Assembly: GCA_002773725.1 (NCBI GenBank)
Contig: PFAH01000008.1
Span: 2,654 to 66,653, forward strand
From: Candidatus Colwellbacteria bacterium CG10_big_fil_rev_8_21_14_0_10_42_22
GTDB taxonomy: Bacteria > Patescibacteriota > Minisyncoccia > UBA6257 > Colwellbacteraceae
Length of the DNA: 64,000 nt
Reading direction: 5' to 3'
Below the pieces are notes generated by a model. That model saw only the letters and a list, made by a program, of their open reading frames with translations, was not told where the DNA came from and searched no databases. Numbering within the stretch: position 1 is the first letter of the stretch; each line of letters begins with the position of its first letter. Of the stretch, positions 1 through 59,210 are shown in pieces. The position numbers and the translations under genes are program-made.

Positions 1-455
1 AGAAAGTAACGCGCCTTCATACTGCCACCCACCTTATGCAAGCAGCTCTTAGAAAAGTTTTAGGAGATCAAGTCGAACAGCGTGGATCAGACATCACGGT
101 TGAAAGGACACGTTTTGATTTCACTTTCGACAGGAAACTGACAGACGAAGAGGTGAAGAAGGTTGAAAACTTGGTGAATGGAGTGATCGAAAAAGATTTG
201 CCGGTTAACTTCGAGGAGATGCCTCTGGAGAAGGCAAAGAAAACCGGTGCACTATACTTTTTTAAAGGTAGATATCCTCTTCAAGTAAAAGTTTATTATG
301 TTGGCGAATCTTTGGATAAAGCATTCTCTAAGGAACTTTGCGGAGGACCCCACGTTGAAAGAACCGGTGGTATGGGAATTTTTGAGATAAAAAAGCAACA
401 AGCAGTCGCTGAAGGCATAAGGCGGGTGAGGGCCGACCTTAAGACAGATAAATGA
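1..455 (+). CDS. alaS: alanyl-tRNA synthetase, C-terminal editing-domain region (or AlaX-type editing protein); 5-prime end cut by window edge
   Basis: The frame is open from nt 3. The translation RKVTRLHTATHLMQAALRKVLG...SKELCGGPHVERTGGMGIFEI...GIRRVRA carries the AlaRS editing-domain zinc motifs HxxxH and CGGxH and the G-x-RR-x-xA tail. ORF track 36..455 is the part downstream of the internal ATG. Confidence 0.8.
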   Translation, partial: KVTRLHTATHLMQAALRKVLGDQVEQRGSDITVERTRFDFTFDRKLTDEEVKKVENLVNGVIEKDLPVNFEEMPLEKAKKTGALYFFKGRYPLQVKVYYVGESLDKAFSKELCGGPHVERTGGMGIFEIKKQQAVAEGIRRVRADLKTDK

Positions 456-35340: not shown

Positions 35341-36681
35341 ATGAACAATAATGAAAGTGTGCCGGTGAATGGTAAAGAGATTTTTCCGAAAAAGAAGTTT
35401 CTTTTTGTTTCTCTAGAGAGTTTAAGTGGCGACCTTGCTTGGACGTTGGTTAAAGAAGGCCACGAAGTCAAGTCATATATAAAATCGCCAGAAGACGAAG
35501 GCGTTTATTCGGGATTTTTTGAAAGAGTTCCGACATGGAAAGAACATGTGGATTGGGCAGACGTCGTTATATTCGACGACGTTGAGTTCGGTTTAATTGC
35601 AGATAATCTTCGTAAAAAAGGAAAGCTTGTAATAGGCGGATCCGAGTATACAGATCGGCTTGAAATTGATAGAGAATTTGGACAGGCCGAACTTAAACGT
35701 CACGGGATTAATGTTCTTCCAAGTTGGCAATTTACCAACTATGACGAGGGGATTAAATTCGTCAGGGAGAACCCCGGGAGATATGTTTTTAAACCCGGCG
35801 GGAATACTCCGTCCAGCGGTAAGGGAATGTTGTTCCTAGGGCAAGAAGATGATGGTCGAGATATTCTTGAGTTGCTTGAGCAGAACAAGTCGGTTTGGGA
35901 GAAACATACACCCGTTTTTCTTCTCCAGAAGTATATTTCGGGAGTAGAGGTGGCAGTCGGCGCATTCTTTAACGGACACGATTTTATATATCCGATTAAC
36001 GTTAATTTTGAGCATAAACGTACTTTTCCGGGGGATATTGGTCCCTTTGCCGGGGAGATGGGAACCCTGATGTATTGGAGCGAGCCGAATAAACTTTTTA
36101 AGGCAACTTTAGAGAAAATGCATCCAGCTCTTAGAGAATCGGGTTATGTAGGATATGTAGACATTAACTGTATTGTGAATCATAGAAGTATTTACCCTCT
36201 TGAATTTACATCCCGTTTCGGCTATCCGACTACCTCTATTCAGCTCGAAGGAATCATGACCCCAACCGGTGAGTGGCTTTATAAAATGGCGATGGGTGAG
36301 AATTTTGATCTCAAAACAAAACGGGGATTTCAAATTGGCATCAGAATATTAGTCCCATCATATTTCGCGTCCGACAGGAAAGCCGAGATAGTTCAAAGAT
36401 ATAAAGATTTAGCCATTACTTTTAAAAATCCGTTAATGAAAGAAGGCGTTCATATAGAAGATGTTAGAGATGATAATGGAGTATGGAGAGTTGCCGGATG
36501 TTCCGGAGTGGTTTTGATTATCACCGCTAGCGGAACAACTGTTGAGGATACAAGGCGTTTGGTCTATAACAGAGTCCAAAACGTAGTTATTCCCAACATG
36601 ATTTATCGTACTGATATTGGGGCTAAATGGCCGATTGATAGCGACAGATTACAAACTTGGGACTATCTTAAACTGGCCTAA
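35341..36681 (+). CDS. purD: phosphoribosylamine--glycine ligase (ATP-grasp)
   Basis: 446 aa. It aligns block by block with E. coli PurD: FKPGGNTPSSGKGMLF/IKADGLAAGKGVIV, GDIGPFAGEMGTLMYWS/GDKDTGPNTGGMGAYSP, EFTSRFGYPTT/EFNCRFGDPET, VVLIITASGTTVEDTRRLVYNRV...RTDIG/RVLCVTALGHTVAEAQKRAYALM...RKDIG. Confidence 0.8.
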   Translation: MNNNESVPVNGKEIFPKKKFLFVSLESLSGDLAWTLVKEGHEVKSYIKSPEDEGVYSGFFERVPTWKEHVDWADVVIFDDVEFGLIADNLRKKGKLVIGGSEYTDRLEIDREFGQAELKRHGINVLPSWQFTNYDEGIKFVRENPGRYVFKPGGNTPSSGKGMLFLGQEDDGRDILELLEQNKSVWEKHTPVFLLQKYISGVEVAVGAFFNGHDFIYPINVNFEHKRTFPGDIGPFAGEMGTLMYWSEPNKLFKATLEKMHPALRESGYVGYVDINCIVNHRSIYPLEFTSRFGYPTTSIQLEGIMTPTGEWLYKMAMGENFDLKTKRGFQIGIRILVPSYFASDRKAEIVQRYKDLAITFKNPLMKEGVHIEDVRDDNGVWRVAGCSGVVLIITASGTTVEDTRRLVYNRVQNVVIPNMIYRTDIGAKWPIDSDRLQTWDYLKLA

Positions 36682-36690
36682 TCTCTACGA

Positions 36691-38010
36691 TTAAATTTTA
36701 TAGGTCGGAGCTATCGGTTTAATAAAATCGTTCGCGAGAGCGTATGTATAAGCGCCCTGGAAGGGAATAACCATAACATCCCCCTCCTTGATTTTGTTTG
36801 CGTAGCAGTAAAATCCCCATATGTCATACGGAGTGCATAGATTTCCGTATAGGGTAAACTTCCTTTCTCTATGGGAGGGGTTTGTAAAATTGATAACTGG
36901 TGAATAATAATCTTCATATTTTTCCCAAACGCCAATCAAATTGGTGCCACCGTCAGCAATGCCGAAATTTTTATTTTTCAAATCTGCTAGACGTACGACT
37001 ATATGCATTGAACGTTCTGCAACCATTCGTCCCGGTTCGCACATATAAGTACATTGAATTAGCGGATCAAGATATTCTTTGCAGGCGTCGCTGATGCCCT
37101 TGGCGAACTCCATAGGAGTTTCTGGCTTTAGGGGGTAGTATTTTTCATTAAAATCTGGATGTAGATTGTAATATTCATTGGCGGTCTGGATAATACGTCC
37201 TTGAGGGGTCGTCCAAGGGTACTCTGCCTCCAACAAAGAAGGCGAGAACCCTCCACCAAAATCAAAGAACTTAATTTCCTCTAATTCCTGCGAGCTGAAT
37301 TGTTTACGCAGGTAGTTTGCGATTTCGATAATCATTTTTTGATAAGGTTCCGCCGATTGATTGAAACTAATGTGACATTGCAGACCCGATAAATTAACAC
37401 CTGGATATTTTTTTGCCTCCCGCCAAAAATTTGCTAGATCTGTAAGCGGTATGCCAAATTTGTGCCAATCCCCATGATGCCCAGTAGAAACCCTAATACC
37501 GGCTCTAATCTGTTGATTCTTATTTAATGTTTGACCTAATTTCTTAAGTTCTCCGAAGCTGTCTAGGTGAATAATTGTTTTACGACGGTTGGTAATAGCT
37601 GTTCTTAACTCCAAACTACTTTTAGCCGGCCCCGAGAAGATTATTTTTTCAACACCGTGCTTTATAGCCAGTTCCAACTCTTTACCGCTGGATACATCAA
37701 GCCCGAGGCCATTCTTAACCACTTCTTTCAAAAGAAAGTCGTGGTCATTCGCTTTAACGGCATAGTATATTTGAAGCCCCGGCATTCTTTCTTTAAAGGC
37801 GTTTGTGAATTCATCAATACTTTTTTTAACTTCCCTCTGATCAAATACATAAAAGGGTGTTTGATGTTTTTTCGTTAGGGCTAATATACTGGCACGTTTT
37901 TTAAGGGCAGATTTGACAGTTGGTAGGAGGTTGCCGGTAGCAGCCCTTACCGGTTCAGCAAGGACCTTGTTTACTATTGCTTTTTGGGCTTTAAGATTTT
38001 TTGAGATCAT
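36691..38010 (-). CDS. PLP-dependent decarboxylase of the Orn/DAP/Arg decarboxylase family (alanine-racemase fold)
   Basis: 439 aa; TPFYVFDQREV...YYAVKANDH...GLGLDVSSGKELE and the C-terminal beta-barrel block GAYTYALAN. Confidence 0.75.
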   Translation of the reverse strand: MISKNLKAQKAIVNKVLAEPVRAATGNLLPTVKSALKKRASILALTKKHQTPFYVFDQREVKKSIDEFTNAFKERMPGLQIYYAVKANDHDFLLKEVVKNGLGLDVSSGKELELAIKHGVEKIIFSGPAKSSLELRTAITNRRKTIIHLDSFGELKKLGQTLNKNQQIRAGIRVSTGHHGDWHKFGIPLTDLANFWREAKKYPGVNLSGLQCHISFNQSAEPYQKMIIEIANYLRKQFSSQELEEIKFFDFGGGFSPSLLEAEYPWTTPQGRIIQTANEYYNLHPDFNEKYYPLKPETPMEFAKGISDACKEYLDPLIQCTYMCEPGRMVAERSMHIVVRLADLKNKNFGIADGGTNLIGVWEKYEDYYSPVINFTNPSHRERKFTLYGNLCTPYDIWGFYCYANKIKEGDVMVIPFQGAYTYALANDFIKPIAPTYKI

Positions 38011-39352
38011 AGTCGAAATAGTCGGAGAGCATTCTACCCGCAGAGTTTATGTTACCGGAAGAGTCAAAGAGGGGAAAGTTGGCGGTGATTATGCCTGCTG
38101 CCCTGTTCTTCCTAAAAATTTCGTTTAGGTCGACGGTTGAGAAATAGATAAACTGGTCGTCTTTTTGGGCTTGTCTGATATCCGGTGACACAAATTTTAC
38201 ATCCTTATTTTTAAATGAATACACACCGATGGGATACGTTTGCTTAACTTTAAATCGTTTACCATTTTCAATATCTAGATTTAGGACCGATCCACTATAC
38301 TCCGATTGAGGTATTGGAAGGACTTTTTTGGGCGTGATGAGAGATTTTTTTATATATCTCTCTATAATCAAGTTGCCGGCTTGGATGTTTGAAATTAGAT
38401 TTGGATTAATGGCGATTTGGGTAGTTGAGGATGAAAAGCGGGGATTGCATTCTATTATTTTAATCGCTCCCCCTTCTGAAAGAATAAAATCAACATTAGC
38501 GAATCCCAAAAATCCTTTTTCCTGTAAAATAGATCCGAGGCGTAGAAAAATTTTGTTAATCGGTTCTTTATTTCGTCCTATTGATGAATTAGGTAGCCAT
38601 TGTATACCGGCGAATATGTGGTCTTGACCATCTTTATTAGAAAAGCACTGCTCTCTGATGGGAGAGAGCGCTATGATGTCTGGTGTGCAAAGAATAGTAA
38701 TACCGCAGGGTTTGCCTGGAATAAATTCTCTTAATAAATAGTCCGGATTATTCTTATTTTTTCTGTTTAGGATTTTTTGCAGGTCATCCTTTGAATTTAT
38801 GAAAAAAGTTCCCTCCCCTCCATCTGAGATTGCTTCCTGTAGAACTAGCCGACCGGAAATTTTCACCTTGCTTTTGGTAGGGTTAATAATTTGACTAGAG
38901 GGCTTAGGCAAATTGTTTTCTGCTAAGAATTGATCAAACCAAATTTTATTTTCTAGATTGTTTTGCCAGACCAGATTTGGGCCTATAACTTCAAAGTCGT
39001 GATTCTTAGCTACGCCGTATATTTGTTTGCGATCTTTATTAGCAACGGTCAGCCAGAGATATTTTATTTTATTCTCTTTTATGACCTTAGTGACATCAGA
39101 GTGTTTTAAAATACTGCCGAAATCATTTTTTTCAAGAGAGGGTTTTTTGGTCGATAGGGAATATAGACAAATTTTCTCTTGGGGCAAGAATTGCCTAGCC
39201 CAAAGCTCTTCGGGAGTTTTTCTAGCAACCAAATAGCGTAAATCAAAATATTTGGAGGGCTGTATGATAATAGATTCCTGATCGCACGGGAAAACTCCAA
39301 CTAGGACGGCTTGCTTATTTTTTAGCTTGGAAAGGTGTAAGTTCTTCTTCAT
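37991..39352 (-). CDS. ATP-grasp domain protein with N-terminal uncharacterised domain
   Basis: 453 aa; C-terminal half DGGEGTFFINSKDDL...REFIPGKPCGITILC...FLGFANVDFIL...IKIIECNPRFSSS is the ATP-grasp core. It overlaps both neighbours, by 20 nt and 38 nt. Confidence 0.65.
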   Translation of the reverse strand: MKKNLHLSKLKNKQAVLVGVFPCDQESIIIQPSKYFDLRYLVARKTPEELWARQFLPQEKICLYSLSTKKPSLEKNDFGSILKHSDVTKVIKENKIKYLWLTVANKDRKQIYGVAKNHDFEVIGPNLVWQNNLENKIWFDQFLAENNLPKPSSQIINPTKSKVKISGRLVLQEAISDGGEGTFFINSKDDLQKILNRKNKNNPDYLLREFIPGKPCGITILCTPDIIALSPIREQCFSNKDGQDHIFAGIQWLPNSSIGRNKEPINKIFLRLGSILQEKGFLGFANVDFILSEGGAIKIIECNPRFSSSTTQIAINPNLISNIQAGNLIIERYIKKSLITPKKVLPIPQSEYSGSVLNLDIENGKRFKVKQTYPIGVYSFKNKDVKFVSPDIRQAQKDDQFIYFSTVDLNEIFRKNRAAGIITANFPLFDSSGNINSAGRMLSDYFDYDLKKS

Positions 39353-40703
39353 AAATCGAAATTAATTTCTTTTCAATAGATTTTGGCACACTTGGTCCGG
39401 CGTGAATACCAAAAAAACGATTTCTCAAGTCGGCCTCTCTATTAATCGCTTCTCCGAGAAGATTTTTCTCGAAAAGTTCTACAAGATATCCTTTAGCGCC
39501 AAGGCGATAGGCGAGTAGGAAGGCCAAAAGTTGTTCCTCCCTTACTGCCAGTGGTTTTTCGTAAGGTCGTTTTATTCTTTTAGCGAAGAGGGGATAAAGA
39601 TTTTTATACTCTTTACCAAAGAGGTCTTTATGAAAATCCATTTGTGTTGGTCTTCCGTTTACGGCAATGGAATAAAGAAAAGATTTCGCACACATTGGAC
39701 AAGCGTAGCACCATCTGGATTGAGACCCTTTATTTGGTGAGCACGACATCATATATTTCAAAAGGTGGGGGTAACGATTATAAAGGATTTTCATCTCGGC
39801 AAGATTATATATTGGCTCTACGGGGCTTAATATTTGAATATTGCGATCCGTGAAACCTGCCAAAACCTCATTTTCTTTTTCGGTATAGACGGAGCTTTGG
39901 TCAAAAGAAGGATATGTCTCCGCACCGAACCGGTTTATATAAGAGTCGTCCATATTTTTTTCATTACCCAATACGATATATTTCGCTCGGTGACTAAAAG
40001 CAAAAGGCATTAATTCAAGGGCGAAAGCTAACATGCCGTTTGTATTTTCAAATTCACCTAGTCCCTTTGTAGGGGGTGCATAATACATATCATCGGCCGT
40101 ATCCTCAAAGAAAAGGATTTTTTCCCCTTGCTCACGGACAAAGGTGTTCATAATATTCATCTTAAATTTATATTCTCCGCTGTTCTGGGATTCCATCTCA
40201 ACACCGAAGACAATTTGCAAGTCAAGACCTATTTCTTTAAGCAGGGCGTATGAAAGTAAACTGTCCTTTCCGAAGGAAAGGGCTAGAATGGCTTTCTCTT
40301 CAGAATGATTCGCAAGTGGTGTTATTTTCTGTTCCTCCCTATCTTTGCCCAAAAAGTTTATCTTGCTCGATTCTAGAATTAATTTATTTAACCTCTCGTT
40401 TTTTAATCCAATAAAATCACTGATGCGGGGCAGGTCTTTAGTCACCCCGTAATCGACAAACTGTCTAAATCTTGGTTCTGAAAATTGATAATTTAATTGA
40501 TTGGTCAGCATGGCCAATGGTCTGGTTCTGGCGTAAGTAAAATTTTCAGCCAAGACCTGCCTGTCCTCATTGTCTAGAGAATTAAAGACAGTGGTGGGAT
40601 ATAGAATTGAGTATTTTCCCCCAAACCCAGGTTCAATTACAAACCCGTTCTCTAAAACTCGATAGGATATCTCAAGCTTTTTTCTTGGATTAACCCTTGT
40701 CAT
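39315..40703 (-). CDS. PP-loop (adenine nucleotide alpha-hydrolase superfamily) ATPase with C-terminal Cys cluster
   Basis: 462 aa; PP-loop ILALSFGKDSLLS (SGGxDS-type) and C-terminal WCYACPMCAKS. The specific family is not assigned. Confidence 0.55.
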   Translation of the reverse strand: MTRVNPRKKLEISYRVLENGFVIEPGFGGKYSILYPTTVFNSLDNEDRQVLAENFTYARTRPLAMLTNQLNYQFSEPRFRQFVDYGVTKDLPRISDFIGLKNERLNKLILESSKINFLGKDREEQKITPLANHSEEKAILALSFGKDSLLSYALLKEIGLDLQIVFGVEMESQNSGEYKFKMNIMNTFVREQGEKILFFEDTADDMYYAPPTKGLGEFENTNGMLAFALELMPFAFSHRAKYIVLGNEKNMDDSYINRFGAETYPSFDQSSVYTEKENEVLAGFTDRNIQILSPVEPIYNLAEMKILYNRYPHLLKYMMSCSPNKGSQSRWCYACPMCAKSFLYSIAVNGRPTQMDFHKDLFGKEYKNLYPLFAKRIKRPYEKPLAVREEQLLAFLLAYRLGAKGYLVELFEKNLLGEAINREADLRNRFFGIHAGPSVPKSIEKKLISIYEEELTPFQAKK

Positions 40704-40814: not shown

Positions 40815-41606
40815 CTACCTAATTTCGTATATGAGCATAATGCTGATTGCGATCTTCTCTGAGCCGGGTTCTACTGAAGGCGCCATTGGTCCGTCTCCTC
40901 CCTTGCCGTATCCCAAATTGTAACCCTCTACGGAATCCGCATAATAGTCATAGTACGGTTCGTTTTCGCTGATAGAAATGAGCTTGCCCAGACGAAAACC
41001 TCCCGCCTTGGCAATACTTTTAGCTTTTTCTTTTGCTTGACTGATGGCGCTAGCGCGCGCCTCATTTTCAATTTGAGTCGGGTCATCTGCTGAGAAATTA
41101 AGCCCCGAAACGTTATTGGCGCCATTTTCAACTACGCCCGAAAGCAATGCTCCTACATTTTCTAGATTACGTACCTTTACAGATACGGTGTGTTGGATGG
41201 AGTACCCAACAATTTCGGGTGGAGAGCAAATACCATCTTCATCAAAGCATCGACTGTATTGATATCGAGGCGAAACGGAATAGTCCTGCGACTGAATATC
41301 TTTTTCGTCAACGCCGTTACTTTTAAGATATTCAATAACAGCATTCGATTGCTCATTGTTTTGTGTTTGAAGAGATGTCGGATTTATCCCGCCCTCTGTC
41401 AAAACACTAAAAGTGAAAGTTCCAATATCGGGAACGACGACTGCTTCTCCTTCTCCCGTTACGGAAAAGGTTCTTTCGCTATAGTCGGGCTGGTTATATA
41501 CATAACCGACTGAAGCGAAGGCAAATGCGAGAGATGTGACAATTAGAGACATCCCCAAATAATTTTTAATTTTTTCGCTCATAATGTTCCTATTATATAC
41601 TTCCAT
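40815..41606 (-). CDS. SIMPL-domain (DUF541) secreted protein
   Basis: 263 aa; an N-terminal signal/TM, then GYSIQHTVSVKVRNLENVGALLSGVVENGANNVSGLNFSADDP, typical of the SIMPL family. Confidence 0.6.
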   Translation of the reverse strand: MEVYNRNIMSEKIKNYLGMSLIVTSLAFAFASVGYVYNQPDYSERTFSVTGEGEAVVVPDIGTFTFSVLTEGGINPTSLQTQNNEQSNAVIEYLKSNGVDEKDIQSQDYSVSPRYQYSRCFDEDGICSPPEIVGYSIQHTVSVKVRNLENVGALLSGVVENGANNVSGLNFSADDPTQIENEARASAISQAKEKAKSIAKAGGFRLGKLISISENEPYYDYYADSVEGYNLGYGKGGDGPMAPSVEPGSEKIAISIMLIYEIR

Positions 41607-53408: not shown

Positions 53409-53502
53409 AATATTTAGAAATTTTTCTCCTGTGGATTTTTGAACCCTTCTCTTTTGGTGTCGTGTTAGAATGTAAATAAAGGTCAAATTAATTTAACAAA
53501 AC

Positions 53503-53760
53503 ATGAAATTAAATCCTAAAGCTTTCGGTTTAGCGTGTGGTTCTATCTGGGGAGCATTAATGGCTTTAATGACAATAATCAATCTCATACCAATGTTTGG
53601 CGGATACGCAGGCGAAATGTTGCTTGTTTTTGCCGGTATTTACCCCGGATACACCATAAGTTGGTTTGGTGTTTTGATTGGGGCGATTTACGGTTTCATA
53701 GACGCCTTTATAGGTGGATGGTTGTTTGTCTGGGTCTATAACAAATTTGATAAGGAATAA
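53503..53760 (+). CDS. hypothetical small membrane protein
   Basis: 85 aa; three glycine-rich hydrophobic helices. A TTGAAC-18-TGTTAGAAT promoter-like element lies upstream at about 53440-53472. Confidence 0.45.
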   Translation: MKLNPKAFGLACGSIWGALMALMTIINLIPMFGGYAGEMLLVFAGIYPGYTISWFGVLIGAIYGFIDAFIGGWLFVWVYNKFDKE

Positions 53761-54114
53761 ATGGAAGAGATTAAGAGTATTGATAGAGACCGTTTGAGGG
53801 GTTGGGTGAGCGATAGAAGCGACTTCGTCCTTGTTGATATAAGAGATAGCGAAGATTACAAAGAGATGCATATCCCCGGGGCCAAAAATATTGGCTTGGA
53901 GTCCAAGGATTTTTTGGGTGAAATTTCTAAGTTGGCTTCCGATAAAAAAACGACGGTTGTTATCTATTGTTATGCTGGAAATTCATCTCCCAAGGTGGCT
54001 GAAAAACTTGTAAAAGTCGGATATGAAGACGTGTACGATTTTAGTGGTGGTATGGACGATTGGGAAGATGCGGGTTATCCAGTAGAAAAGAACGGACAAA
54101 TGATTTATAGGTGA
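53761..54114 (+). CDS. rhodanese-domain sulfurtransferase
   Basis: 117 aa; active-site loop CYAGNSS, with flanking rhodanese blocks VLVDIRDSEDYKEMHIPGA and FSGGMDDWEDAGYPV. Confidence 0.8.
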   Translation: MEEIKSIDRDRLRGWVSDRSDFVLVDIRDSEDYKEMHIPGAKNIGLESKDFLGEISKLASDKKTTVVIYCYAGNSSPKVAEKLVKVGYEDVYDFSGGMDDWEDAGYPVEKNGQMIYR

Positions 54115-54189
54115 ATCTTTTCATACTTTTTTGATGTGGCCTTTATTAAATCTTCTTTATATTAATGACGAAAATAGGGGATGGGTCTT

Positions 54190-54250
54190 AAAAACAGAAA
54201 CGCCCACCAAAGATAGCGAGCAGAATCTGCTCACGTCCCCAGTGGGCGCG
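54190..54250 (-). terminator. intrinsic terminator for the minus-strand small-gene operon (CGCCCAC...GTGGGCG with inner GAGCAG/CTGCTC; U-run on the minus strand)
   Basis: Read directly: plus strand AAAAACAGAAACGCCCACCAAAGATAGCGAGCAGAATCTGCTCACGTCCCCAGTGGGCG. On the minus-strand transcript the stem is followed by UUUCUGUUUUU. Confidence 0.6.
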
Positions 54251-54263
54251 TGATGAGGTGTTC

Positions 54264-54605
54264 CTAGTTTTCGTCCTCATCTTCAGCTTCAGAGAACCAC
54301 TTCTCGTTTTCGGGGGGCGCAATTCGCACCTCGACGACGTAGGAGCCCCCACAATCGTCGAGTTCCTGTCCACAGAACGGACAGATGTACTCGAGCAATC
54401 CATTGACCCGAAGATCCCCTCCTGGTGCTCTGCCCCCCGCATTGCATTCCCATTCCGTAGAAGAGTCAGCAATGGATGCACCGATTGCCTTGAAGTGTTC
54501 CTCGACAATCTCAATACAGGCACAGACATCCGGATCGATGAGGTCTGCCGAGCATTCGAATTTTTCGAAAGCCCTGCCAACGAAGTCCAAGTCGATGGGT
54601 TTCAT
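54264..54605 (-). CDS. hypothetical acidic protein with Cys pairs (zinc-ribbon-like), GC-rich island gene 5
   Basis: 113 aa; CSADLIDPDVCAC...EWECNAGG...ICPFCGQELDDCGG and the tail EAEDEDEN. AGAAGGGA lies upstream of the ATG. Last gene before the terminator. Confidence 0.5.
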   Translation of the reverse strand: MKPIDLDFVGRAFEKFECSADLIDPDVCACIEIVEEHFKAIGASIADSSTEWECNAGGRAPGGDLRVNGLLEYICPFCGQELDDCGGSYVVEVRIAPPENEKWFSEAEDEDEN

Positions 54606-54620
54606 ACTTCTTGTTCCCTT

Positions 54621-54989
54621 CTACGCAATCCAAAGACCGTGCAGACCGGATAGTTCACGCCTGAACACTCCGCCCCTCTTCTCCACATGCTCGCGAAACA
54701 TACGAAAAACGTTGTCCACGTTCTCCGCGTCGTACCACCCATCGTATAGACCATCATCATCGAGGGCGATGTAAATGAGTCCTTTTGGTTGGAGAGAAGC
54801 ATCGTGCTGGGAAATGACCTCCTCACGTTCTTCGTCCCAGAGAAGAATGTGACCCATGTTGGGCAGAAACCCCACTCTTTTCCCGAGGATTCTTGGATGG
54901 GATTTCTCCAAGTTGGCCAATGCCGTTCCGCCGGGGTGGTGTCCCTCTGTCCATCCATACCTCGCCCTATAGAGCCAAAGCGTTTCCAT
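54621..54989 (-). CDS. hypothetical protein, GC-rich island gene 4
   Basis: 122 aa; AAGGGG 5 nt before the ATG, and 11 nt after the stop of gene 3. The alternative frame 54602..54994 looks compositionally like noise. Confidence 0.45.
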   Translation of the reverse strand: METLWLYRARYGWTEGHHPGGTALANLEKSHPRILGKRVGFLPNMGHILLWDEEREEVISQHDASLQPKGLIYIALDDDGLYDGWYDAENVDNVFRMFREHVEKRGGVFRRELSGLHGLWIA

Positions 54990-55000
54990 ATCAACCCCTT

Positions 55001-55339
55001 CTAGGTACCGATGGTGTGAATACCGCGTTGCCCCGGATACTCTGGGGCCTCGACGATGGTTCGTGTCCTCACATACGCGTCGTAGTTGTCTTCATAAACC
55101 CAACCCAGGATTATTCCATTCAGGTTGTTGTCTTCGAAGAAAACTCGAATCTTATGACCAACATGTGGCCATGCTCCGGTGTGGTAGTTGAAGTGCTCAC
55201 CCTCCATCCATGAAAGAAGCCCTCCATTGGAAAGATCGAATTGGTGAATCTGGTAAGATTCGTTCAAACGAACTTCTCCCACCATATTCGTGACATCGAC
55301 CTCGATAACCACACCAGCATGCCAATCGCGATATGTCAT
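55001..55339 (-). CDS. hypothetical protein, GC-rich island gene 3
   Basis: 112 aa from the ATG at 55339 (MTYRDWHAGVVIEV...). The ATG overlaps the stop of gene 2 in an ATGA motif, indicating translational coupling. Confidence 0.45.
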   Translation of the reverse strand: MTYRDWHAGVVIEVDVTNMVGEVRLNESYQIHQFDLSNGGLLSWMEGEHFNYHTGAWPHVGHKIRVFFEDNNLNGIILGWVYEDNYDAYVRTRTIVEAPEYPGQRGIHTIGT

Positions 55340-55500
55340 GATCTGTGTCCTCCGGTTGTTATGAAGCGACGAAATCTCGGATTGTGGCGGTTGTCCCTGC
55401 ACTCAAGTCGAGCGGGCGCAACTCGCATCTTCTTGTCTTCACGATGCAGAAGTTTGGGAGAGCCCAACGCTTGTGCAACATGTCTCCAGAAATCGTTCAT
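55336..55500 (-). CDS. hypothetical small basic protein, GC-rich island gene 2
   Basis: 54 aa from the ATG at 55500, with GAGGAAG 7 nt upstream. The ORF track extends to a GTG at 55548, which has no ribosome-binding site. Arg/His-rich. Confidence 0.4.
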   Translation of the reverse strand: MNDFWRHVAQALGSPKLLHREDKKMRVAPARLECRDNRHNPRFRRFITTGGHRS

Positions 55501-55609
55501 AGTTCTCTTCCTCAGTTGTGAAAGAGCGAAGCCCTTTCTTTTCCCCACGGGGCTTATAGGTCTTGAATATGCAATATTTATAAGAGTCAGTCAACTTCGT
55601 TAGAGTTAA

Positions 55610-55625
55610 GCTATCTCAAGATAGC
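55610..55625. promoter_or_regulatory. near-perfect palindrome GCTATCT-CA-AGATAGC in the intergenic region upstream of the gene 2-5 operon
   Basis: Read directly. A TTGACT box (minus strand, plus coordinates 55589-55594) lies next to it. Candidate operator. Confidence 0.4.
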
Positions 55626-55746
55626 CATCGGATGCCAAAGGGCACTTTATCTCTAACGGGGTCAATTTTAATACACCCAAAAATGCATGAACCCCACCTT
55701 TGTGAAATCGGGCGGGATTCACGCAGATGGGGTTGTTGGGCTCGCT

Positions 55747-55983
55747 TTAGACGCGCCCTCGGATTCTGGGAAAAGAGAAGCATCGGTCGTGCTGATGGCA
55801 CCTCTCGGCGCTGTTGTAGATAGAAAGGCGAATTTCGCAGCCCTTCTCCGCGCAAATGCGTCCCGTGGGATACACCTTGTGTTTGCGGTTGCTTCCGCCG
55901 ATTCTTCTCGCAATTGTCGGATTGCGACGCGTAGTCGCTCCTCCAAAATTGCCTCCCACTCCCTCGTTCTCAAAGAGCGGCAT
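55747..55983 (-). CDS. hypothetical zinc-finger-like small protein, GC-rich island gene 1
   Basis: 78 aa; GGGAGG with a 6-nt spacer before the ATG. Cys/His pattern CAEKGC-x12-CHQHDRC. It is the first gene downstream of the divergent promoter region. Confidence 0.5.
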   Translation of the reverse strand: MPLFENEGVGGNFGGATTRRNPTIARRIGGSNRKHKVYPTGRICAEKGCEIRLSIYNSAERCHQHDRCFSFPRIRGRV

Positions 55984-56009
55984 CTTTTTCCTCCCTATCC
56001 CGATGCCTT

Positions 56010-56126
56010 AGACCCCTAAAATACAATTTTTAATTATTAAAAGTCAATATTCGTATTTGACTAGCGAAATAAATTGTGGCAATTTCTATATGTACATTGA
56101 AGTCTAAGTTGAAGGGAGCGTTCATC
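56010..56126. promoter_or_regulatory. divergent control region between the minus-strand and plus-strand small-gene operons
   Basis: AT-rich, with AGTCAA (56042-56047) and TTGACT (56057-56062) forming an inverted pair of -35-like boxes 9 nt apart (AGTCAA-ATATTCGTATT-TGACT). Genes with good ribosome-binding sites start on both sides. Confidence 0.45.
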
Positions 56127-56405
56127 GTGCAAGACATTCCCGAAAACGTGGAACTCGGAAGTCAGCTCTATTGGGAGTATCGACTTCGCAACGAACTGAA
56201 CTCCAGATGGAATCGTGTTGCCAATCATCTCGTGGCTTTGAAGAAGCGGATGTATGAACAGAGATGTGATGACGGATGCATTCTCGGGATTTGGCACTGG
56301 CTTGTGAATCAGTGGGGAGAGTCCCTTCTGAGAAGGCGTAATGCCTGCGAGGAACGCATTCGCATTTTGGAGCACCAGATTTGGATTAAAGGAGAACGAG
56401 AATGA
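56127..56405 (+). CDS. hypothetical protein, GC-rich island plus-strand gene 1
   Basis: 93 aa from the GTG at 56127, with AAGGGAG 8 nt upstream. The ORF track ATG at 56076 lacks a ribosome-binding site. The stop overlaps the next ATG (ATGA). Confidence 0.4.
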   Translation: MQDIPENVELGSQLYWEYRLRNELNSRWNRVANHLVALKKRMYEQRCDDGCILGIWHWLVNQWGESLLRRRNACEERIRILEHQIWIKGERE

Positions 56406-56650
56406 ATGGTATGAGCATCATTCAGCGCATTGACACCGCCTTCATCCTTATAGCAAGCGTTGTCGGGTTTGTAGTTGGCGTTGTTGCGGGTTTGCTTACT
56501 GGTCTTTGTGTCCTTGTCGGCGTTGTTTTCGGTTTTGATTGGCTCCTAGAAATCAATCCGAGATATTTGGTTGCCGTTTCGGTCTTTGTTGTTTGCCTGA
56601 CGGTAATCGTGCTGGCGAGGATTCGATTGAAGAAAGAAATGCTTCTGTGA
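56402..56650 (+). CDS. hypothetical small membrane protein, GC-rich island plus-strand gene 2
   Basis: 82 aa; AAGGAG 7 nt upstream; hydrophobic stretches FILIASVVGFVVGVVAGLLTGLCVLVGVVFGF and YLVAVSVFVVCLTVIVLA. Confidence 0.5.
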   Translation: MNGMSIIQRIDTAFILIASVVGFVVGVVAGLLTGLCVLVGVVFGFDWLLEINPRYLVAVSVFVVCLTVIVLARIRLKKEMLL

Positions 56651-56886
56651 TGGAAAATCCTTCCGAGCGAACGGCGTTGGCTGTCGTCATCGGTATCGCT
56701 GTCACACTGGTGTTGGTCTGGTTTGCCTTCCGTGTGGGAGACCCCCAGTGGTTCATTCTCATCCTCGCTTTTCCTATCGGTGTCGTCTCCTTCCTCGCTC
56801 TCGTTTTCAGCTTGGTGTGCTGTCTTCAGAAGGGGATTTGCACAGCGATCATCGAAGACAAGCGCCGGCAAAAGCCGGACAGGTAA
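56650..56886 (+). CDS. hypothetical small membrane protein, GC-rich island plus-strand gene 3
   Basis: 78 aa from the ATG at 56650, overlapping the previous stop (TGATG). Two TM helices and a CC pair. The terminator follows immediately. Confidence 0.45.
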   Translation: MENPSERTALAVVIGIAVTLVLVWFAFRVGDPQWFILILAFPIGVVSFLALVFSLVCCLQKGICTAIIEDKRRQKPDR

Positions 56887-56887
56887 T

Positions 56888-56946
56888 ACCCGCACATCGA
56901 GACGCAAAACTCGCGCGTCTTAGGGGGAGATGTGCGGGTTTTGTGC
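56888..56946 (+). terminator. intrinsic terminator (ACCCGCACATC ... GATGTGCGGGT TTTGTGCTTC) with an inner palindrome GAGACGC/GCGTCT
   Basis: Read directly; an 11-bp outer stem followed by a T-rich tract. Confidence 0.65.
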
Positions 56947-56971
56947 TTCTTGGGTGTATGATTAGAGCAGT

Positions 56972-57169
56972 GTGAAGTTAAAAGAATTTCAAAAACTAGA
57001 GAACGAGGATAAGCTCGAAGAGATTTTTAAATCCGTCGAGAAGACGAGAAAGTATTTCAAAGTGACACTCATCGTCGCCTTAGTTGTTATCGTCTTACCA
57101 CTTTTAGTTTTGCCAATGATAATCGGGCAATTCTTAAATACTTACAATTTAAACGTATTAGGATTATAG
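56972..57169 (+). CDS. hypothetical small membrane protein
   Basis: 65 aa; GTG start; low GC; one TM helix. Confidence 0.35.
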   Translation: MKLKEFQKLENEDKLEEIFKSVEKTRKYFKVTLIVALVVIVLPLLVLPMIIGQFLNTYNLNVLGL

Positions 57170-57173
57170 AATA

Positions 57174-57587
57174 ATGATCGAATGGAAATTATATCTAGCC
57201 AAACTCTTGGGTAAAAAGCGCCATACGGCGTATGTTCTTTTAGAGAAAGAAGGCAAGTTTTTGCTTGTTCAGGAATCGACTTCGGGAATTCGTGGATTGT
57301 GGGGTTTGCCCGGTGGTGGTATCGATGGGGGCGAATCTCCCGAACAGGCAGCCGAAAGAGAGGTCGAAGAAGAATCGGGCTTTGATGTAGAGCTGATCCG
57401 GAAGATCGCGGAGATTCAGGATAAAAAACGAAACAGTGTGCGCCATATTTTTCTAGGGAAAATAAAGTCAGGTGAGCTTAGAATTGATAAACGTGAACAT
57501 ATAGATGCTGGTTGGTTCAGTAAGGAAGAAATGCAATCTCTCAAATTAAGAGGCGATTGGGTGATAGAAGCTTTTGACTTGATATAA
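57174..57587 (+). CDS. NUDIX hydrolase
   Basis: 137 aa; Nudix box GLPGGGIDGGESPEQAAEREVEEESGF (G-x5-E-x7-REUxEExGU). Confidence 0.85.
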   Translation: MIEWKLYLAKLLGKKRHTAYVLLEKEGKFLLVQESTSGIRGLWGLPGGGIDGGESPEQAAEREVEEESGFDVELIRKIAEIQDKKRNSVRHIFLGKIKSGELRIDKREHIDAGWFSKEEMQSLKLRGDWVIEAFDLI

Positions 57588-57594
57588 TCTCAAT

Positions 57595-57990
57595 ATGGAA
57601 ACATACGTTTGGTATCAGCAATTAATTCGCCCAGATTGGGCACCGCCAGCTTGGGTTTTTGGACCTGTTTGGAGTGTTTTATATTTATTAATATTTATTT
57701 CCTTTGGAGCAGTTCTTTTAAAGGTTTTTCAAAAGAAATTACCAGCAAAGATTGCCCTACCATTTGTCTTGAATATTGTTTTTAATTTGGCCTTTACGCC
57801 CATTCAGTTTGGGCTACAAAATAATATTTTAGCCGCCCTAGATATCTTGTTTGTTTTGGGCACTATGGTTTGGATGTTTAAGTTCATTTGGCCCCACATG
57901 CGTTGGGTGATTTATGTAAACATCCCTTATTTTCTTTGGGTCTCTTTCGCTACTATCCTACAGCTCACTATCACTTATCTAAATCTATAA
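57595..57990 (+). CDS. tspO: TspO/MBR family tryptophan-rich sensory protein
   Basis: 131 aa; five TM helices; W-rich N-terminus WYQQLIRPDWAPPAWVFGPVWSVLYLL. Confidence 0.8.
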   Translation: METYVWYQQLIRPDWAPPAWVFGPVWSVLYLLIFISFGAVLLKVFQKKLPAKIALPFVLNIVFNLAFTPIQFGLQNNILAALDILFVLGTMVWMFKFIWPHMRWVIYVNIPYFLWVSFATILQLTITYLNL

Positions 57991-58037
57991 AAACGAAGAA
58001 GACCACCGCGGGGCGAGGGAAGACGATGGTCTTCTTC
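57990..58037 (-). terminator. intrinsic terminator (11-bp stem GAAGAAGACCA/TGGTCTTCTTC; U-run on the minus strand)
   Basis: Read directly. On the minus-strand RNA the stem is followed by GUUUUUA. It sits between convergent tspO and the 58583-to-58065 gene. Confidence 0.6.
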
Positions 58038-58064
58038 GGGCCGTGATGGTCTTTTGATGTGGTT

Positions 58065-58583
58065 CTAGCAGACGGGTATGGGGGCAATCAATCGCCCACG
58101 CGACCGCCTGCAGTCGGCGATGTCCCAGACCTCCACGAGATCCAGATCGCCGTTCCCTCCGTCGCCGTGCTCGAACGAGCGGTGTTCCAGCTCCGGAACC
58201 TCTTCGATTGCTCTTGAGCAACAGACGCTCGCGAACACGGAAGGCATCATGAGATCAGCGATCTCATGATCGCGGAGGCGGAGGAGCAGATCCTCCAAGT
58301 CCGAGACCGCTTCGTCCCAGGCGGTCTCTTCGCACCAGACCGGCGCGAATCCAAATCGGCGATCGTACCGGTGCGGACGGTACTCATAGAGCACCGTCAC
58401 GCCATCAGGCGGGATGCAGGGCATGGTGCCCTTTTCCACCCACGGCTCGCACTCGCGGAAAATCACTTCCCCCCCGTTACGCAGGGGAGCGATGACTTTC
58501 CGACCTCGCTGGGTCGGTTCGATGATGGCAAACCACTCACCATCATCACCTTGAAATGCTTCAAAGATCGTTCCCCCAAACAT
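58065..58583 (-). CDS. hypothetical protein (172 aa), GC-rich
   Basis: ATG at 58583 with AAGGAGGG 4 nt upstream. A TTGACA-17-TACAAA promoter lies on the minus strand (plus coordinates 58622-58650). The terminator is downstream. No family recognised. Confidence 0.5.
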   Translation of the reverse strand: MFGGTIFEAFQGDDGEWFAIIEPTQRGRKVIAPLRNGGEVIFRECEPWVEKGTMPCIPPDGVTVLYEYRPHRYDRRFGFAPVWCEETAWDEAVSDLEDLLLRLRDHEIADLMMPSVFASVCCSRAIEEVPELEHRSFEHGDGGNGDLDLVEVWDIADCRRSRGRLIAPIPVC

Positions 58584-58644
58584 GGTCCCTCCTTCTTGTC
58601 GCTTCAAGGACCGTTGCGGTGTTTGTACCATAAAACAGAATAAA

Positions 58645-58700
58645 TGTCAATAAAGTGGATACTTTCCACTCTTGATTAAATTAATTTTCTATTGTATAAA
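58645..58700. promoter_or_regulatory. back-to-back divergent promoters: minus-strand TTGACA (58645-58650) for the 172-aa gene and plus-strand TTGATT-17-TATAAA (58672-58700) for rnpB
   Basis: Hexamers read directly. A small hairpin GTGGA-TACTT-TCCAC (58655-58669) sits between the two -35 boxes. Confidence 0.5.
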
Positions 58701-58803: not shown

Positions 58804-59210
58804 GCAGGGAGGCAATTTAGATAGCAGCTTTGTGGACTCTACACAGTCGAGATAGTGATTGTTCTTTACATCAGGAGTCCGCAAAGAGGAAAGTCCGGAC
58901 ACTCCTCCGACTTAGGTCGGAGAGCAGGGTAGCGGGTAATACCCGTCGTTCGAAAGAATAGAGGTGCGAGCAGTGACGCTCTGTTTAGAAATATGCAGAG
59001 AGGCCCGATCCCAACGTAGATGGTCTAATCCCGCCATAGGGGCAAAAAGCGGGAGTGAAACGGCTAAATCCTTACCTGAGTGCAAGGCCGTGCTCCGACT
59101 TCGGTCGGAGAGAGCCGCACGAGCTTGAGAGTAATCGATGGCCTAGATAGATTGCTATCATCCGACCACGCGTCGGATTACAGAATCCGGCTTATTAATT
59201 GCCTCCCTGC
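58804..59210 (+). ncRNA. rnpB: RNase P RNA (bacterial type A)
   Basis: P1 pairing GCAGGGAGGCAATT (5-prime) with AATTGCCTCCCTGC (3-prime). P4 strands AGGAAAGTCCGGACACTCC and ACAGAATCCGGCTTAT. Conserved AGGGTAGCGGGTAATACCCG, GGGCAAAAAGCGGGAGTGAAACGGC and TGAGTGCAAGGCCGTGCTCCGACTTCGGTCGGAG modules. Confidence 0.85.

What the first reader, a model, noticed from the sequence alone, without database searches (positions are those of the whole stretch)
36691..40703. Overlapping three-gene operon: PP-loop ATPase with Cys cluster, ATP-grasp ligase, PLP-dependent (Orn/DAP-type) decarboxylase
The three minus-strand genes overlap by 38 and 20 nt, so they are tightly co-translated. The combination is an adenylating or amidotransferase-like PP-loop enzyme, an amide-bond-forming ATP-grasp enzyme with an unknown 230-aa N-domain, and an amino-acid decarboxylase. 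This is a plausible minimal pathway for a modified amino acid, polyamine or peptide-like metabolite, or for a cell-wall precursor. It does not match a canonical pathway I can name.
Basis: inference. Interest (0 to 1): 0.55.

Follow-up and report, generated by a model that had tools for sequence, protein, structure and literature searches.

The report
Unknown small-peptide pathway in tiny bacteria
Three overlapping genes in a Candidatus Colwellbacteria (Patescibacteria) genome are a real operon and part of a gene cassette shared by many ultra-small bacteria and archaea; it probably builds an amide-linked, decarboxylated amino-acid derivative whose identity nobody has determined.

Summary
Three minus-strand ORFs of 462, 453 and 439 aa overlap by 38 and 20 nt, and each has many homologs.

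- **Gene 2** is an ordinary full-length ATP-grasp ligase of the PurD/biotin-carboxylase type.
- **Gene 3** is a catalytically intact fold-III PLP decarboxylase, but not LysA. It scores 151 bits against a cutoff of 298 and lacks the DAP-specific CES and IRP motifs. Its CTPYD motif resembles BtrK.

The genes are co-conserved. An ATP-grasp gene and the decarboxylase both lie within 8 kb of gene 1 in 21 of 33 Patescibacteria- and DPANN-type loci. Gene 2 is followed by gene 3 in all 16 loci that have gene 2. Fuller cassettes add LAL/Ddl-type ligases, a PurD-like ligase (adjacent here, 35341..36681), GNAT and SET proteins.

The most likely function is an ATP-grasp-built, side-chain-tethered amino acid that is alpha-decarboxylated, with a MurL-like adenylation step (epimerisation or amidation). 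The product is unknown.

The parts
39315..40703 (-). Gene 1 ('c0'), 462 aa. QueC-fold PP-loop adenylating enzyme with extra N-terminal (about 1-125) and C-terminal (about 350-462) domains. Distant MurL homolog. No Pfam family.
40260..40277 (-). PP-loop motif SFGKDS (residues 143-148), the ATP pyrophosphatase signature.
   Evidence: Translation. G145, K146 and S148 are invariant in 84 sequences.
39690..39743 (-). Cys4 cluster C321-x10-C332-x2-C335-x2-C338, with the spacing pattern of the QueC zinc site (recalled, not checked here).
   Evidence: Translation. All four Cys are invariant in 84 sequences. The comparison with QueC's C-x8-C-x2-C-x2-C zinc site is from my own knowledge.
37991..39352 (-). 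Gene 2 ('c7'), 453 aa. Full-length ATP-grasp ligase of PurD/biotin-carboxylase/CPS-like architecture, with the ECNPR catalytic loop at 38438..38452.
   Evidence: PF02655. AF2 pLDDT 90. Foldseek: PurD, biotin carboxylase and PurK with TM about 0.6 over 440-460 columns. Motif translation. The family has only about 56 database hits, and every one that carries a source name is from Patescibacteria.
36691..38010 (-). Gene 3 ('c2'), 439 aa. Fold-type III PLP decarboxylase of a separate subfamily, not LysA.
   Evidence: PF02784 and PF00278. lysA 151 bits against a cutoff of 298. K86 (YAVKAN), H213, GGG, EPGR and C392 in CTPYD are present. CES and IRP are absent.
39315..39352 (-). 38-nt overlap between gene 1 and gene 2 (translational coupling).
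37991..38010 (-). 20-nt overlap between gene 2 and gene 3.
35341..36681 (+). Convergent neighbour ('c23'), 446 aa. PurD-like ATP-grasp that is not a purD equivalog. It is probably a fourth member of the cassette.
   Evidence: GARS_A and GARS_C. purD TIGR00877 102 bits against a cutoff of 288. It lies next to gene 1 or gene 3 in L001, L003 and L006, and in the same operon in L081/L082 and L084.
40815..41606 (-). Upstream SIMPL/DUF541 gene, 111 nt from gene 1. Possibly co-transcribed, probably not functionally linked.
   Evidence: PF04402. Among the 79 related loci it was detected (by tblastn) only in the closest relative, L001.

Best explanation
The operon is the reduced form of a dedicated cassette that builds amide bonds without a ribosome. 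The cassette is found in Patescibacteria and DPANN archaea.

Shown:
- Gene 1 has the fold and motifs of a carboxylate-adenylating PP-loop enzyme of the QueC type, and is a distant homolog of MurL.
- Gene 2 is an intact ATP-grasp carboxylate-amine ligase.
- Gene 3 is an intact PLP alpha-decarboxylase that lacks the DAP-specific residues.
- Genes 2 and 3 always travel together.
- Gene 1 travels with ATP-grasp ligases.

Inferred:
1. The ATP-grasp ligase (gene 2) joins an amino acid to an acceptor through a side-chain or distal group. This leaves the alpha-amino-acid head free.
2. The decarboxylase (gene 3) removes the alpha-carboxylate of that tethered residue, exposing a new amine. This is the logic of BtrJ/BtrK, CtaD/CtaF and FslA/FslC.
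3. Gene 1 adenylates a carboxylate of the same intermediate or of a peptide partner. The most likely purpose is to invert C-alpha (L to D) as MurL does. Less likely, it forms an amide.
4. The adjacent PurD-like ligase adds a further residue.

The product would be a small amide-linked, amine-terminated, possibly D-configured amino-acid derivative. I cannot tell from sequence whether it is a metabolite, an envelope component or a compatible solute.
For: - **Gene 1.** PP-loop and Cys4 motifs are invariant. The QueC fold stands clearly above other PP-loop enzymes. MurL is the only family hit: 72 of 84 members, with collinear coordinates (window 106-165 to model 111-167; L077 221-334 to 224-336). 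MurL needs ATP and Mg, forms AMP, and is encoded next to its ligase MurD2 (PMC5808125).
- **Gene 2.** ATP-grasp fold and ECNPR loop.
- **Gene 3.** Catalytic K86, H213, E325 and C392 are invariant, and the DAPDC motifs are replaced. BtrK is its second-best PDB relative and shares the CTPxD motif. PLP decarboxylases acting on side-chain-tethered Glu or Asp are documented (PMC11350588).
- **Co-conservation.** In 21 of 33 Patescibacteria- and DPANN-type loci (grouped by identity to gene 1), an ATP-grasp gene and the decarboxylase both lie within 8 kb of gene 1. Gene 2 is followed by gene 3 in 16 of 16 loci, including non-CPR loci without gene 1. There are tight 7-8 gene operons in L081 and L084.
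- **Hints of D/L chemistry among the neighbours.** Ddl-family ligases in 44 loci. DgcN-like genes in 3 loci, and an L-Ala-D/L-Glu-epimerase-like gene inside the L017 operon. The decarboxylase's closest characterised relatives are DAP decarboxylases, which act on a D-centre (the stereochemistry is from established knowledge).
Against: - No substrate is identified, and every substrate assignment rests on analogy.
- Similarity to MurL is weak: 20 bits for the window protein and at best E 8e-14 in the family, against a cutoff of 700. I could not obtain a genuine MurL sequence to compare catalytic residues.
- There is no carrier-protein gene in the operon, unlike the Btr, Cta and Flv systems.
- A PLP decarboxylase needs a free alpha-amine, while MurL's substrate has an acylated alpha-amine. 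Genes 1 and 3 therefore cannot act on the same residue in the simplest scheme.
- Genes 2 and 3 occur without gene 1 in some bacteria (L080, L083, L085), so gene 1 may serve a separate step or a separate product.
- Gene 1 relatives in Asgard and Bathyarchaeia genomes have no decarboxylase nearby (0 of 38 loci in the group with less than 36% identity to gene 1).
Confidence: 0.45

Rival explanations
1. Peptidoglycan-specific role. Gene 1 would be a functional MurL analogue that makes a D-residue on a murein precursor, or supplies D-Ala or D-Glu without a racemase. The ATP-grasp ligases and the decarboxylase would tailor the stem peptide, for example by adding a side chain or converting peptide-bound meso-DAP to L-Lys at its free D-centre.
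For: - MurL is the only characterised relative.
- In L009 and L065 the cassette directly follows a Mur ligase, FtsW, MurG and a Ddl-like gene.
- Mur ligase genes lie near it in L010, L015 and L018.
- The cassette or its flanks in some loci carry an Acetyltransf_6 GNAT (which I recall as Fem-like), ABC exporters and an L-Ala-D/L-Glu-epimerase-like gene.
- The decarboxylase has lost exactly the residues that I recall as binding the free L-centre of DAP in DAP decarboxylases.
- MurB lies 8 kb away in the window.
Against: - Gene 1 and the decarboxylase are just as tightly linked in DPANN archaea (8 of 10 loci). Gene 1 is also common in Asgard and Bathyarchaeia genomes. As far as I know, none of these make murein.
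- There is no Mur ligase in the window operon.
- CPR genomes are so compact that adjacency to dcw genes in 4-5 loci is weak evidence.
Confidence: 0.15
2. Compatible-solute or small dipeptide-amide pathway of the NAGGN type. ATP-grasp ligase(s), with a GNAT in fuller cassettes, would make an N-acyl dipeptide. Gene 1 would act as a QueC-like ammonia-dependent amidating enzyme on the C-terminal carboxylate. The decarboxylase would remove the remaining charge.
For: - QueC and Cap9, the closest folds, turn adenylated carboxylates into amides (the chemistry is from established knowledge).
- GNAT genes recur next to gene 1: 13 loci in the more distant, mostly archaeal group, plus CPR loci L014, L021 and L084.
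- NAGGN is made by Ngg (N-acetylation plus peptide bond) and the amidotransferase AsnO (PMC8070244).
- The KamA-like gene in DPANN scores almost as an AblA-type lysine 2,3-aminomutase, an osmolyte enzyme (492 bits against a cutoff of 525).
Against: - There is no glutaminase partner.
- The sequence relative is MurL, not QueC or AsnB (no hit to either family).
- Neighbours related to D-amino-acid chemistry (Ddl family, DgcN-like, dipeptide epimerase-like) are not explained.
- The window cassette has no GNAT (and the window annotation).
Confidence: 0.12
3. Salvage or catabolism rather than biosynthesis. The cassette would convert scavenged D-amino-acid peptides (for example murein fragments from hosts or necromass) into usable L-amino acids. 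A ligase would N-acylate a D-residue, gene 1 would invert it D to L, a peptidase would release it, and the decarboxylase would turn DAP-type residues into lysine.
For: - DgcN-like genes (D-Glu salvage by N-acetylation and then racemisation) and a dipeptide-epimerase-like gene are neighbours.
- A 620-aa protein with an HEIGH motif, possibly a metallopeptidase, sits inside 6 CPR cassettes.
- From general knowledge, the hosts are episymbionts or sediment heterotrophs with poor amino-acid biosynthesis.
Against: - Spending several ATP per residue is costly for catabolism.
- MurL works only from L to D.
- The putative peptidase has no family or PDB support.
- The window lacks the peptidase-like gene and the DgcN-like gene.
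Confidence: 0.08
4. Post-translational modification of a protein. The ATP-grasp would attach Glu (or beta-Lys in DPANN) to a protein lysine or C-terminus. The decarboxylase would convert it to an aminobutyryl arm, giving a hypusine-like or beta-lysyl-like extension. A SET protein would methylate it.
For: - SET-domain genes, classically protein lysine methyltransferases, recur in 8 cassettes.
- BtrK acts on a protein-tethered glutamyl group.
- Cap9, a top structural match, modifies a protein N-terminus.
- The KamA-like gene is also related to EpmB.
Against: - No conserved candidate target gene lies in the cassettes.
- The window has no SET gene.
- LAL- and Ddl-type ligases usually make free peptides.
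Confidence: 0.06
5. Null reading: gene 3 is simply lysA, and the other two genes are unrelated housekeeping genes packed together in a small genome.
For: DAP decarboxylases are the best-scoring characterised relatives. Several database records call family members diaminopimelate decarboxylase.
Against: - The lysA model scores half its cutoff.
- The CES and IRP motifs are absent, and a family-specific insertion of about 40 aa is present in all 30 aligned members.
- The gene order is conserved across phyla and across domains.
Confidence: 0.03

Closest known systems
MurD2-MurL (alternative D-Glu route in Xanthomonas peptidoglycan synthesis)
   Same: - An amide ligase gene sits next to an ATP- and Mg-dependent, AMP-forming enzyme that acts on the carboxylate of the newly added residue.
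- Gene 1 is a distant sequence homolog of MurL, with similar length and collinear matches.
   Different: - The score is far below the MurL cutoff (20 bits against 700).
- The partner ligase is an ATP-grasp enzyme, not a Mur ligase.
- The family occurs in lineages (DPANN, Asgard, Bathyarchaeia) that, as far as I know, make no murein.
- A decarboxylase is added.
- The substrate cannot be UDP-MurNAc-dipeptide in the archaeal members.
BtrJ-BtrI-BtrK (butirosin AHBA side chain), and CtaD/E/F and FlvN/L/O
   Same: - A ligase tethers Glu or Asp through its side chain.
- A fold-III PLP decarboxylase then removes the alpha-carboxylate.
- Gene 3 shares the CTPxD motif and 72 bits with BtrK.
- Ligase-decarboxylase adjacency is strict (16 of 16 loci).
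   Different: - There is no acyl-carrier-protein gene.
- I could not compare gene 2 with BtrJ directly.
- The context is a minimal-genome organism rather than an antibiotic gene cluster.
QueC / Cap9 (7-deazaguanine carboxylate adenylation and amide formation)
   Same: - A PP-loop plus a C-terminal Cys4 knuckle with the same spacing pattern.
   Different: - No sequence-level hit to the QueC families.
- Gene 1 is twice the size, with extra N- and C-terminal domains.
- None of the neighbours annotated in the window or the related loci belongs to a queuosine or CBASS family.
DapF-LysA (epimerase followed by a decarboxylase specific for the D-centre)
   Same: If gene 1 inverts an L-centre and gene 3 keeps the D-centre preference of DAP decarboxylases, the pair repeats this two-step logic. 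DAP decarboxylases are the top-scoring relatives of gene 3.
   Different: - Gene 3 lacks the DAP-binding motifs.
- Gene 1 is unrelated to DapF.
- The stereochemistry is untested.
Ngg-AsnO (NAGGN osmolyte) and FslA-FslC (rhizoferrin)
   Same: - Both are short ATP-driven amide assembly lines.
- NAGGN combines a ligase with a PP-loop-type amidation step.
- Rhizoferrin combines a ligase with a decarboxylase of a side-chain-acylated ornithine. FslC scores 77 bits against gene 3.
   Different: - The enzyme families for the adenylating step differ (AsnB-type enzyme and NIS synthetase).
- The window cassette has no GNAT.
- There is no evidence for citrate or glutamine substrates.

Membership tests
[quoted passage not shown] | Sequence reaches the curated equivalog cutoff of 700 bits. 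| tested here: not met
   The window protein scores 20.3 bits. The best E-value in the family is 8e-14 and none is near the cutoff.
MurL | Encoded next to a MurD2-type Mur ligase in an organism that lacks other D-Glu sources. | tested here: not met
   The partner in the window is an ATP-grasp ligase, and there is no Mur ligase among the annotated ORFs around the operon. The absence of murI or dat in the genome could not be checked from 64 kb.
MurL | ATP- and Mg-dependent, AMP-forming, one-way L-to-D epimerisation of a C-terminal residue. | not testable with these tools
   This needs enzyme assays. The property is known for MurL from PMC5808125.
QueC (7-cyano-7-deazaguanine synthase) | PP-loop fold with an SGGxDS-type motif and a C-terminal Cys4 zinc site. 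| tested here: met
   [not shown]
QueC (7-cyano-7-deazaguanine synthase) | Sequence membership (Pfam or NCBIfam QueC models), a size of about 220 aa, and a queuosine gene context. | tested here: not met
   No Pfam hit and no QueC NCBIfam hit. The protein is 462 aa with two extra domains. No queuosine-pathway family was seen among the annotated neighbours.
ATP-grasp carboxylate-amine ligases | ATP-grasp domain above the Pfam cutoff, the E-x-N-x-R catalytic loop, and the multi-domain fold. | tested here: met
   PF02655 scores 44 bits against 23.2. ECNPR is invariant. TM is about 0.6 to PurD and biotin carboxylase over the full length.
D-Ala-D-Ala ligase / PurD / biotin carboxylase (specific ATP-grasp families) for gene 2 | Reaches a curated family cutoff. 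| tested here: not met
   The best hit is the Ddl_archaea model at 39 bits against 500. All other hits are also far below their cutoffs.
Diaminopimelate decarboxylase LysA (TIGR01048) | Curated cutoff of 297.9 bits. | tested here: not met
   151.3 bits.
Diaminopimelate decarboxylase LysA | Residues that hold the distal L-centre of DAP: the Glu of the CES(G)D motif and the Arg of the DxGMNDLIRP motif. This assignment of roles is from established knowledge of DAPDC structures. | tested here: not met
   The motifs are CTPYD and DGGTNLIGVWE instead. This holds across 30 family members.
Fold-type III PLP decarboxylases (Orn/DAP/Arg group) | PLP lysine, His, the GGG phosphate loop, EPGR and the catalytic Cys. 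| tested here: met
   K86, H213, G252-254, E325-R328 and C392 are present and invariant or nearly so.
BtrK-type decarboxylases of carrier-tethered glutamate | Partner carrier protein and ligase; substrate is gamma-glutamyl-S-ACP. | tested here: inconclusive
   A ligase partner is present and strictly linked (16 of 16 loci). The CTPxD motif is shared. No carrier-protein gene was seen in the window operon, whose genes overlap.
PurD (TIGR00877) for neighbour 35341..36681 | Curated cutoff of 288 bits. | tested here: not met
   101.7 bits, although the alignment covers the full length.

The most novel reading that the evidence does not exclude
The gene 1 family (854 cluster representatives at 50% identity; no Pfam model) would be a widespread class of ATP-dependent amino-acid or peptide epimerases. 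It would give Patescibacteria, DPANN, Asgard and Bathyarchaeia a racemase-independent D-amino-acid chemistry. Together with the strictly paired ATP-grasp ligase and a decarboxylase specific for tethered (possibly D) residues, it would make a previously unknown class of amide-linked, amine-terminated metabolites or envelope or protein modifications in ultra-small cells.
Probability: 0.15. Interest if true: 0.8.

Novelty: new variant of a known kind. Interest (0 to 1): 0.58.

Why it matters
Patescibacteria and DPANN have very small genomes and keep few biosynthetic genes. A multi-enzyme, ATP-expensive cassette retained across both groups is therefore likely to make something important for their cell surface, stress tolerance or symbiotic life.

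Gene 1 defines an unannotated family whose only studied relative, MurL, is an unusual ATP-driven peptide epimerase of unknown mechanism. The high-confidence QueC-type model found here gives MurL-like enzymes a structural frame, which suggests a mechanistic one (a PP-loop adenylation site plus a zinc knuckle).

Identifying the product could reveal a new metabolite class and a new route to D-residues outside the racemases.

Tried and rejected
1. **Gene 3 as lysA: rejected.** Its score is half the cutoff and the DAP-site motifs are absent.
2. **An unknown N-domain in the ATP-grasp protein: rejected.** The full-length fold matches PurD and biotin carboxylase.
4. **PDB relatives of gene 1 by sequence: none,** even with a profile.
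5. **Retrieving a genuine MurL sequence for profile-profile comparison: failed.** The low-scoring tail of the exhaustive search contained no MurL equivalog. The afdb50 fold library was unavailable.
6. **Other cassette genes in the window: none.** The double ATP-grasp, the HEIGH protein, SET, Ddl-like and KamA-like genes are all absent from the 64 kb.
7. **Literature searches: nothing on this cassette.** Searches for QueC-like plus ATP-grasp, for CPR glutamate racemase, and for Patescibacteria plus DAP decarboxylase plus ATP-grasp found nothing relevant.
8. **The 620-aa HEIGH protein as a known peptidase: no support** from Pfam or PDB.
9. **Promoter and terminator scans around the operon: uninformative.** Counts were close to the shuffled expectation.

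Full report
**Observation**

The window is a Patescibacteria genome. Gene 3 is 100% identical to a hypothetical protein of Candidatus Colwellbacteria CG10. GC content is about 41%.

Three minus-strand ORFs sit at 40703..39315 (462 aa), 39352..37991 (453 aa) and 38010..36691 (439 aa). They overlap by 38 and 20 nt. Both overlaps survive inspection of the DNA. ATG 39352 is the only start codon before the conserved N-terminus of gene 2. ATG 38010 gives gene 3 the same length as its homologs. Each protein has many homologs.

**Gene 1 (PP-loop enzyme)**

- It matches no Pfam family.
- It carries SFGKDS and C-x10-C-x2-C-x2-C, and the four Cys are invariant in 84 family members.
- An AlphaFold model built on 29 homologs is confident (pLDDT 93.5).
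- The N-terminal 125 and C-terminal 110 residues match nothing solved.
- By sequence, the only curated family hit is MurL. The window protein gives E 1.7e-4, and 72 of 84 family members hit it, with a best E-value of 8e-14. The matches are collinear and the proteins are of similar overall length.
[quoted passage not shown] It is encoded next to its ligase MurD2 and has so far been described as lacking known domains (PMC5808125 and PMC8788868).
- All scores are far below the MurL cutoff, so gene 1 is a distant paralog and not MurL itself.
- The family is modest in size: 854 cluster representatives at E of 1e-3 or better among 1.84 billion.
- It occurs in Patescibacteria, DPANN, Asgard, Bathyarchaeia and a few other lineages.

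**Gene 2 (ATP-grasp)**

- PF02655 passes its cutoff, and the ECNPR catalytic loop is invariant.
- The model (pLDDT 90) aligns over its whole length with PurD, biotin carboxylase and PurK (TM about 0.6).
- No specific ATP-grasp family cutoff is reached.
- The family is small (56 hits). Every hit that carries a source name is from Patescibacteria.

**Gene 3 (decarboxylase)**

- The Pfam Orn/DAP/Arg decarboxylase domains are present.
- All catalytic residues are present and conserved: K86, H213, GGG, EPGR and C392.
- It is not LysA. TIGR01048 scores 151 bits against a cutoff of 298.
- The DAPDC motifs that I recall as holding the distal L-centre are replaced. CES(G)D becomes CTPYD, and DxGMNDLIRP becomes DGGxNxxGxWE. 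This is true across 30 family members, which also share an insertion of about 40 aa.
- The CTPxD motif and 72 bits link it to BtrK, which decarboxylates a side-chain-tethered glutamate.

**Context**

I fetched 79 loci encoding gene 1 relatives from species-representative genomes and clustered their neighbours. I grouped the loci by how similar their gene 1 is to the window's. The table counts partners within 8 kb.

| Group of loci (by identity to the window's gene 1) | Informative loci | ATP-grasp gene | Decarboxylase | Both |
|---|---|---|---|---|
| 42% or more (Patescibacteria-type) | 23 | 20 | 14 | 13 |
| 36-42% (mostly DPANN) | 10 | 10 | 8 | 8 |
| Below 36% (mostly Asgard, Bathyarchaeia, other archaea) | 38 | 22 (Ddl-like) | 0 | 0 |

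- Thirteen loci of the most distant group also have a GNAT gene nearby.
- Gene 2 is followed by gene 3 in all 16 loci that have gene 2. These include three loci, apparently from larger non-CPR genomes, that lack gene 1 (L080, L083, L085).
- Fuller operons read: LAL+Ddl double ATP-grasp, a 630-aa protein, PurD-like, gene 1, gene 2, gene 3, SET (L081/L082). Another reads: double ATP-grasp, GNAT, gene 1, gene 1, gene 2, gene 3, SET, PurD-like (L084).
- The PurD-like gene is the convergent neighbour in the window (35341..36681). Its stop is 9 nt from that of gene 3.
- Other recurrent neighbours:
  - Ddl-family ligases (44 loci).
  - KamA-like aminomutases, sometimes fused to the Ddl-like ligase.
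  - DgcN-like genes, and an L-Ala-D/L-Glu-epimerase-like gene.
  - ABC exporters, and in a few CPR loci Mur ligase, FtsW and MurG.
- The window itself holds only genes 1-3 and the PurD-like gene. Its closest relative, L001, has the same layout.

**Interpretation**

The cassette appears to have two sub-modules:
- gene 1 with a Ddl/LAL-type ligase, with or without a GNAT;
- gene 2 with gene 3, with or without a SET protein.

The second matches the documented pattern in which a ligase tethers an amino acid by its side chain and a fold-III decarboxylase removes the alpha-carboxylate (BtrJ/K, CtaD/F, FlvN/O; FslC).

The first matches the MurD2-MurL pattern of a ligase followed by adenylation of the new residue's carboxylate. 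Which reaction follows adenylation cannot be settled from sequence. It could be inversion, as in MurL, or amide formation, as in QueC, Cap9 and the NAGGN amidation step.

Neighbours tied to D-amino-acid chemistry tilt me toward epimerisation. These are the Ddl family, the DgcN-like genes, the dipeptide-epimerase-like gene, and a decarboxylase whose nearest characterised relatives act on a D-centre.

The product is unknown. A murein-specific role is weakened by the archaeal distribution. The null reading (lysA plus unrelated housekeeping genes) is rejected.

**Novelty and score**

All three superfamilies are known, and the ligase-decarboxylase and ligase-adenylase pairings have precedents. What is new:
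- this combination;
- the unannotated MurL-related, QueC-fold family;
- its retention in minimal genomes across both prokaryotic domains.

I rate it a new variant of a known kind, with interest 0.58.

Noticed in passing
window 58843..59206 (+): A bacterial class A RNase P RNA match covers the full model but scores only 64 bits, below Rfam's gathering score of 100. It looks like a divergent CPR RNase P RNA that the default scan missed.
   Followed up: partly
window about 53500..58650: GC content rises to 0.46-0.50, against about 0.41 elsewhere. The stretch holds a run of short plus-strand ORFs (85-137 aa) and no long ORF. It is probably a ribosomal-protein cluster, but I did not check.
   Followed up: no
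L003:10118-12445 (+) (Candidatus Jorgensenbacteria): The ortholog of the window's PurD-like gene (35341..36681) is split by an insertion of about 330 aa (residues 76-408). The flanks are 61-69% identical to the window protein. It looks like an intein or homing endonuclease inside this ATP-grasp gene.
   Followed up: partly
L020:5963-8074, L030:6534-8618, L038:45-2138, L050:7890-9947 (DPANN): A KamA-like radical SAM aminomutase (nearly AblA-type) is fused to a Ddl-like ATP-grasp ligase in one protein of about 700 aa, next to a gene 1 homolog. This suggests a beta-amino acid is made and ligated directly.
   Followed up: partly
L007, L017, L029, L033, L050, L053, L054, L060, L084: Two gene 1 paralogs sit in tandem. 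In the loci where it was measured, the second copy is only 23-30% identical to the window protein. This implies two distinct adenylation steps in the fuller cassettes.
   Followed up: no
L006/L081, L010, L011, L014, L021, L080, L083, L084: A small SET-domain (lysine methyltransferase-type) gene recurs inside the cassette, next to gene 1 or gene 3. Its substrate, whether a small amine or a protein lysine, is unexplained.
   Followed up: partly
L004, L006, L009, L016, L018, L065 (for example L065:7009-8850): A conserved protein of about 620 aa lies within 8 kb of gene 1 in six Patescibacteria-type loci. In L004, L006/L081 and L018 it sits between core cassette genes. It has no Pfam or PDB match. 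It carries an HEIGH motif followed by EELKAE, which is reminiscent of zinc metallopeptidase motifs.
   Followed up: partly
window 40815..41606 (-): A SIMPL/DUF541 gene with an apparently hydrophobic N-terminal segment lies 111 nt upstream of the operon on the same strand. Among the related loci it was detected only in the closest relative, L001.
   Followed up: partly
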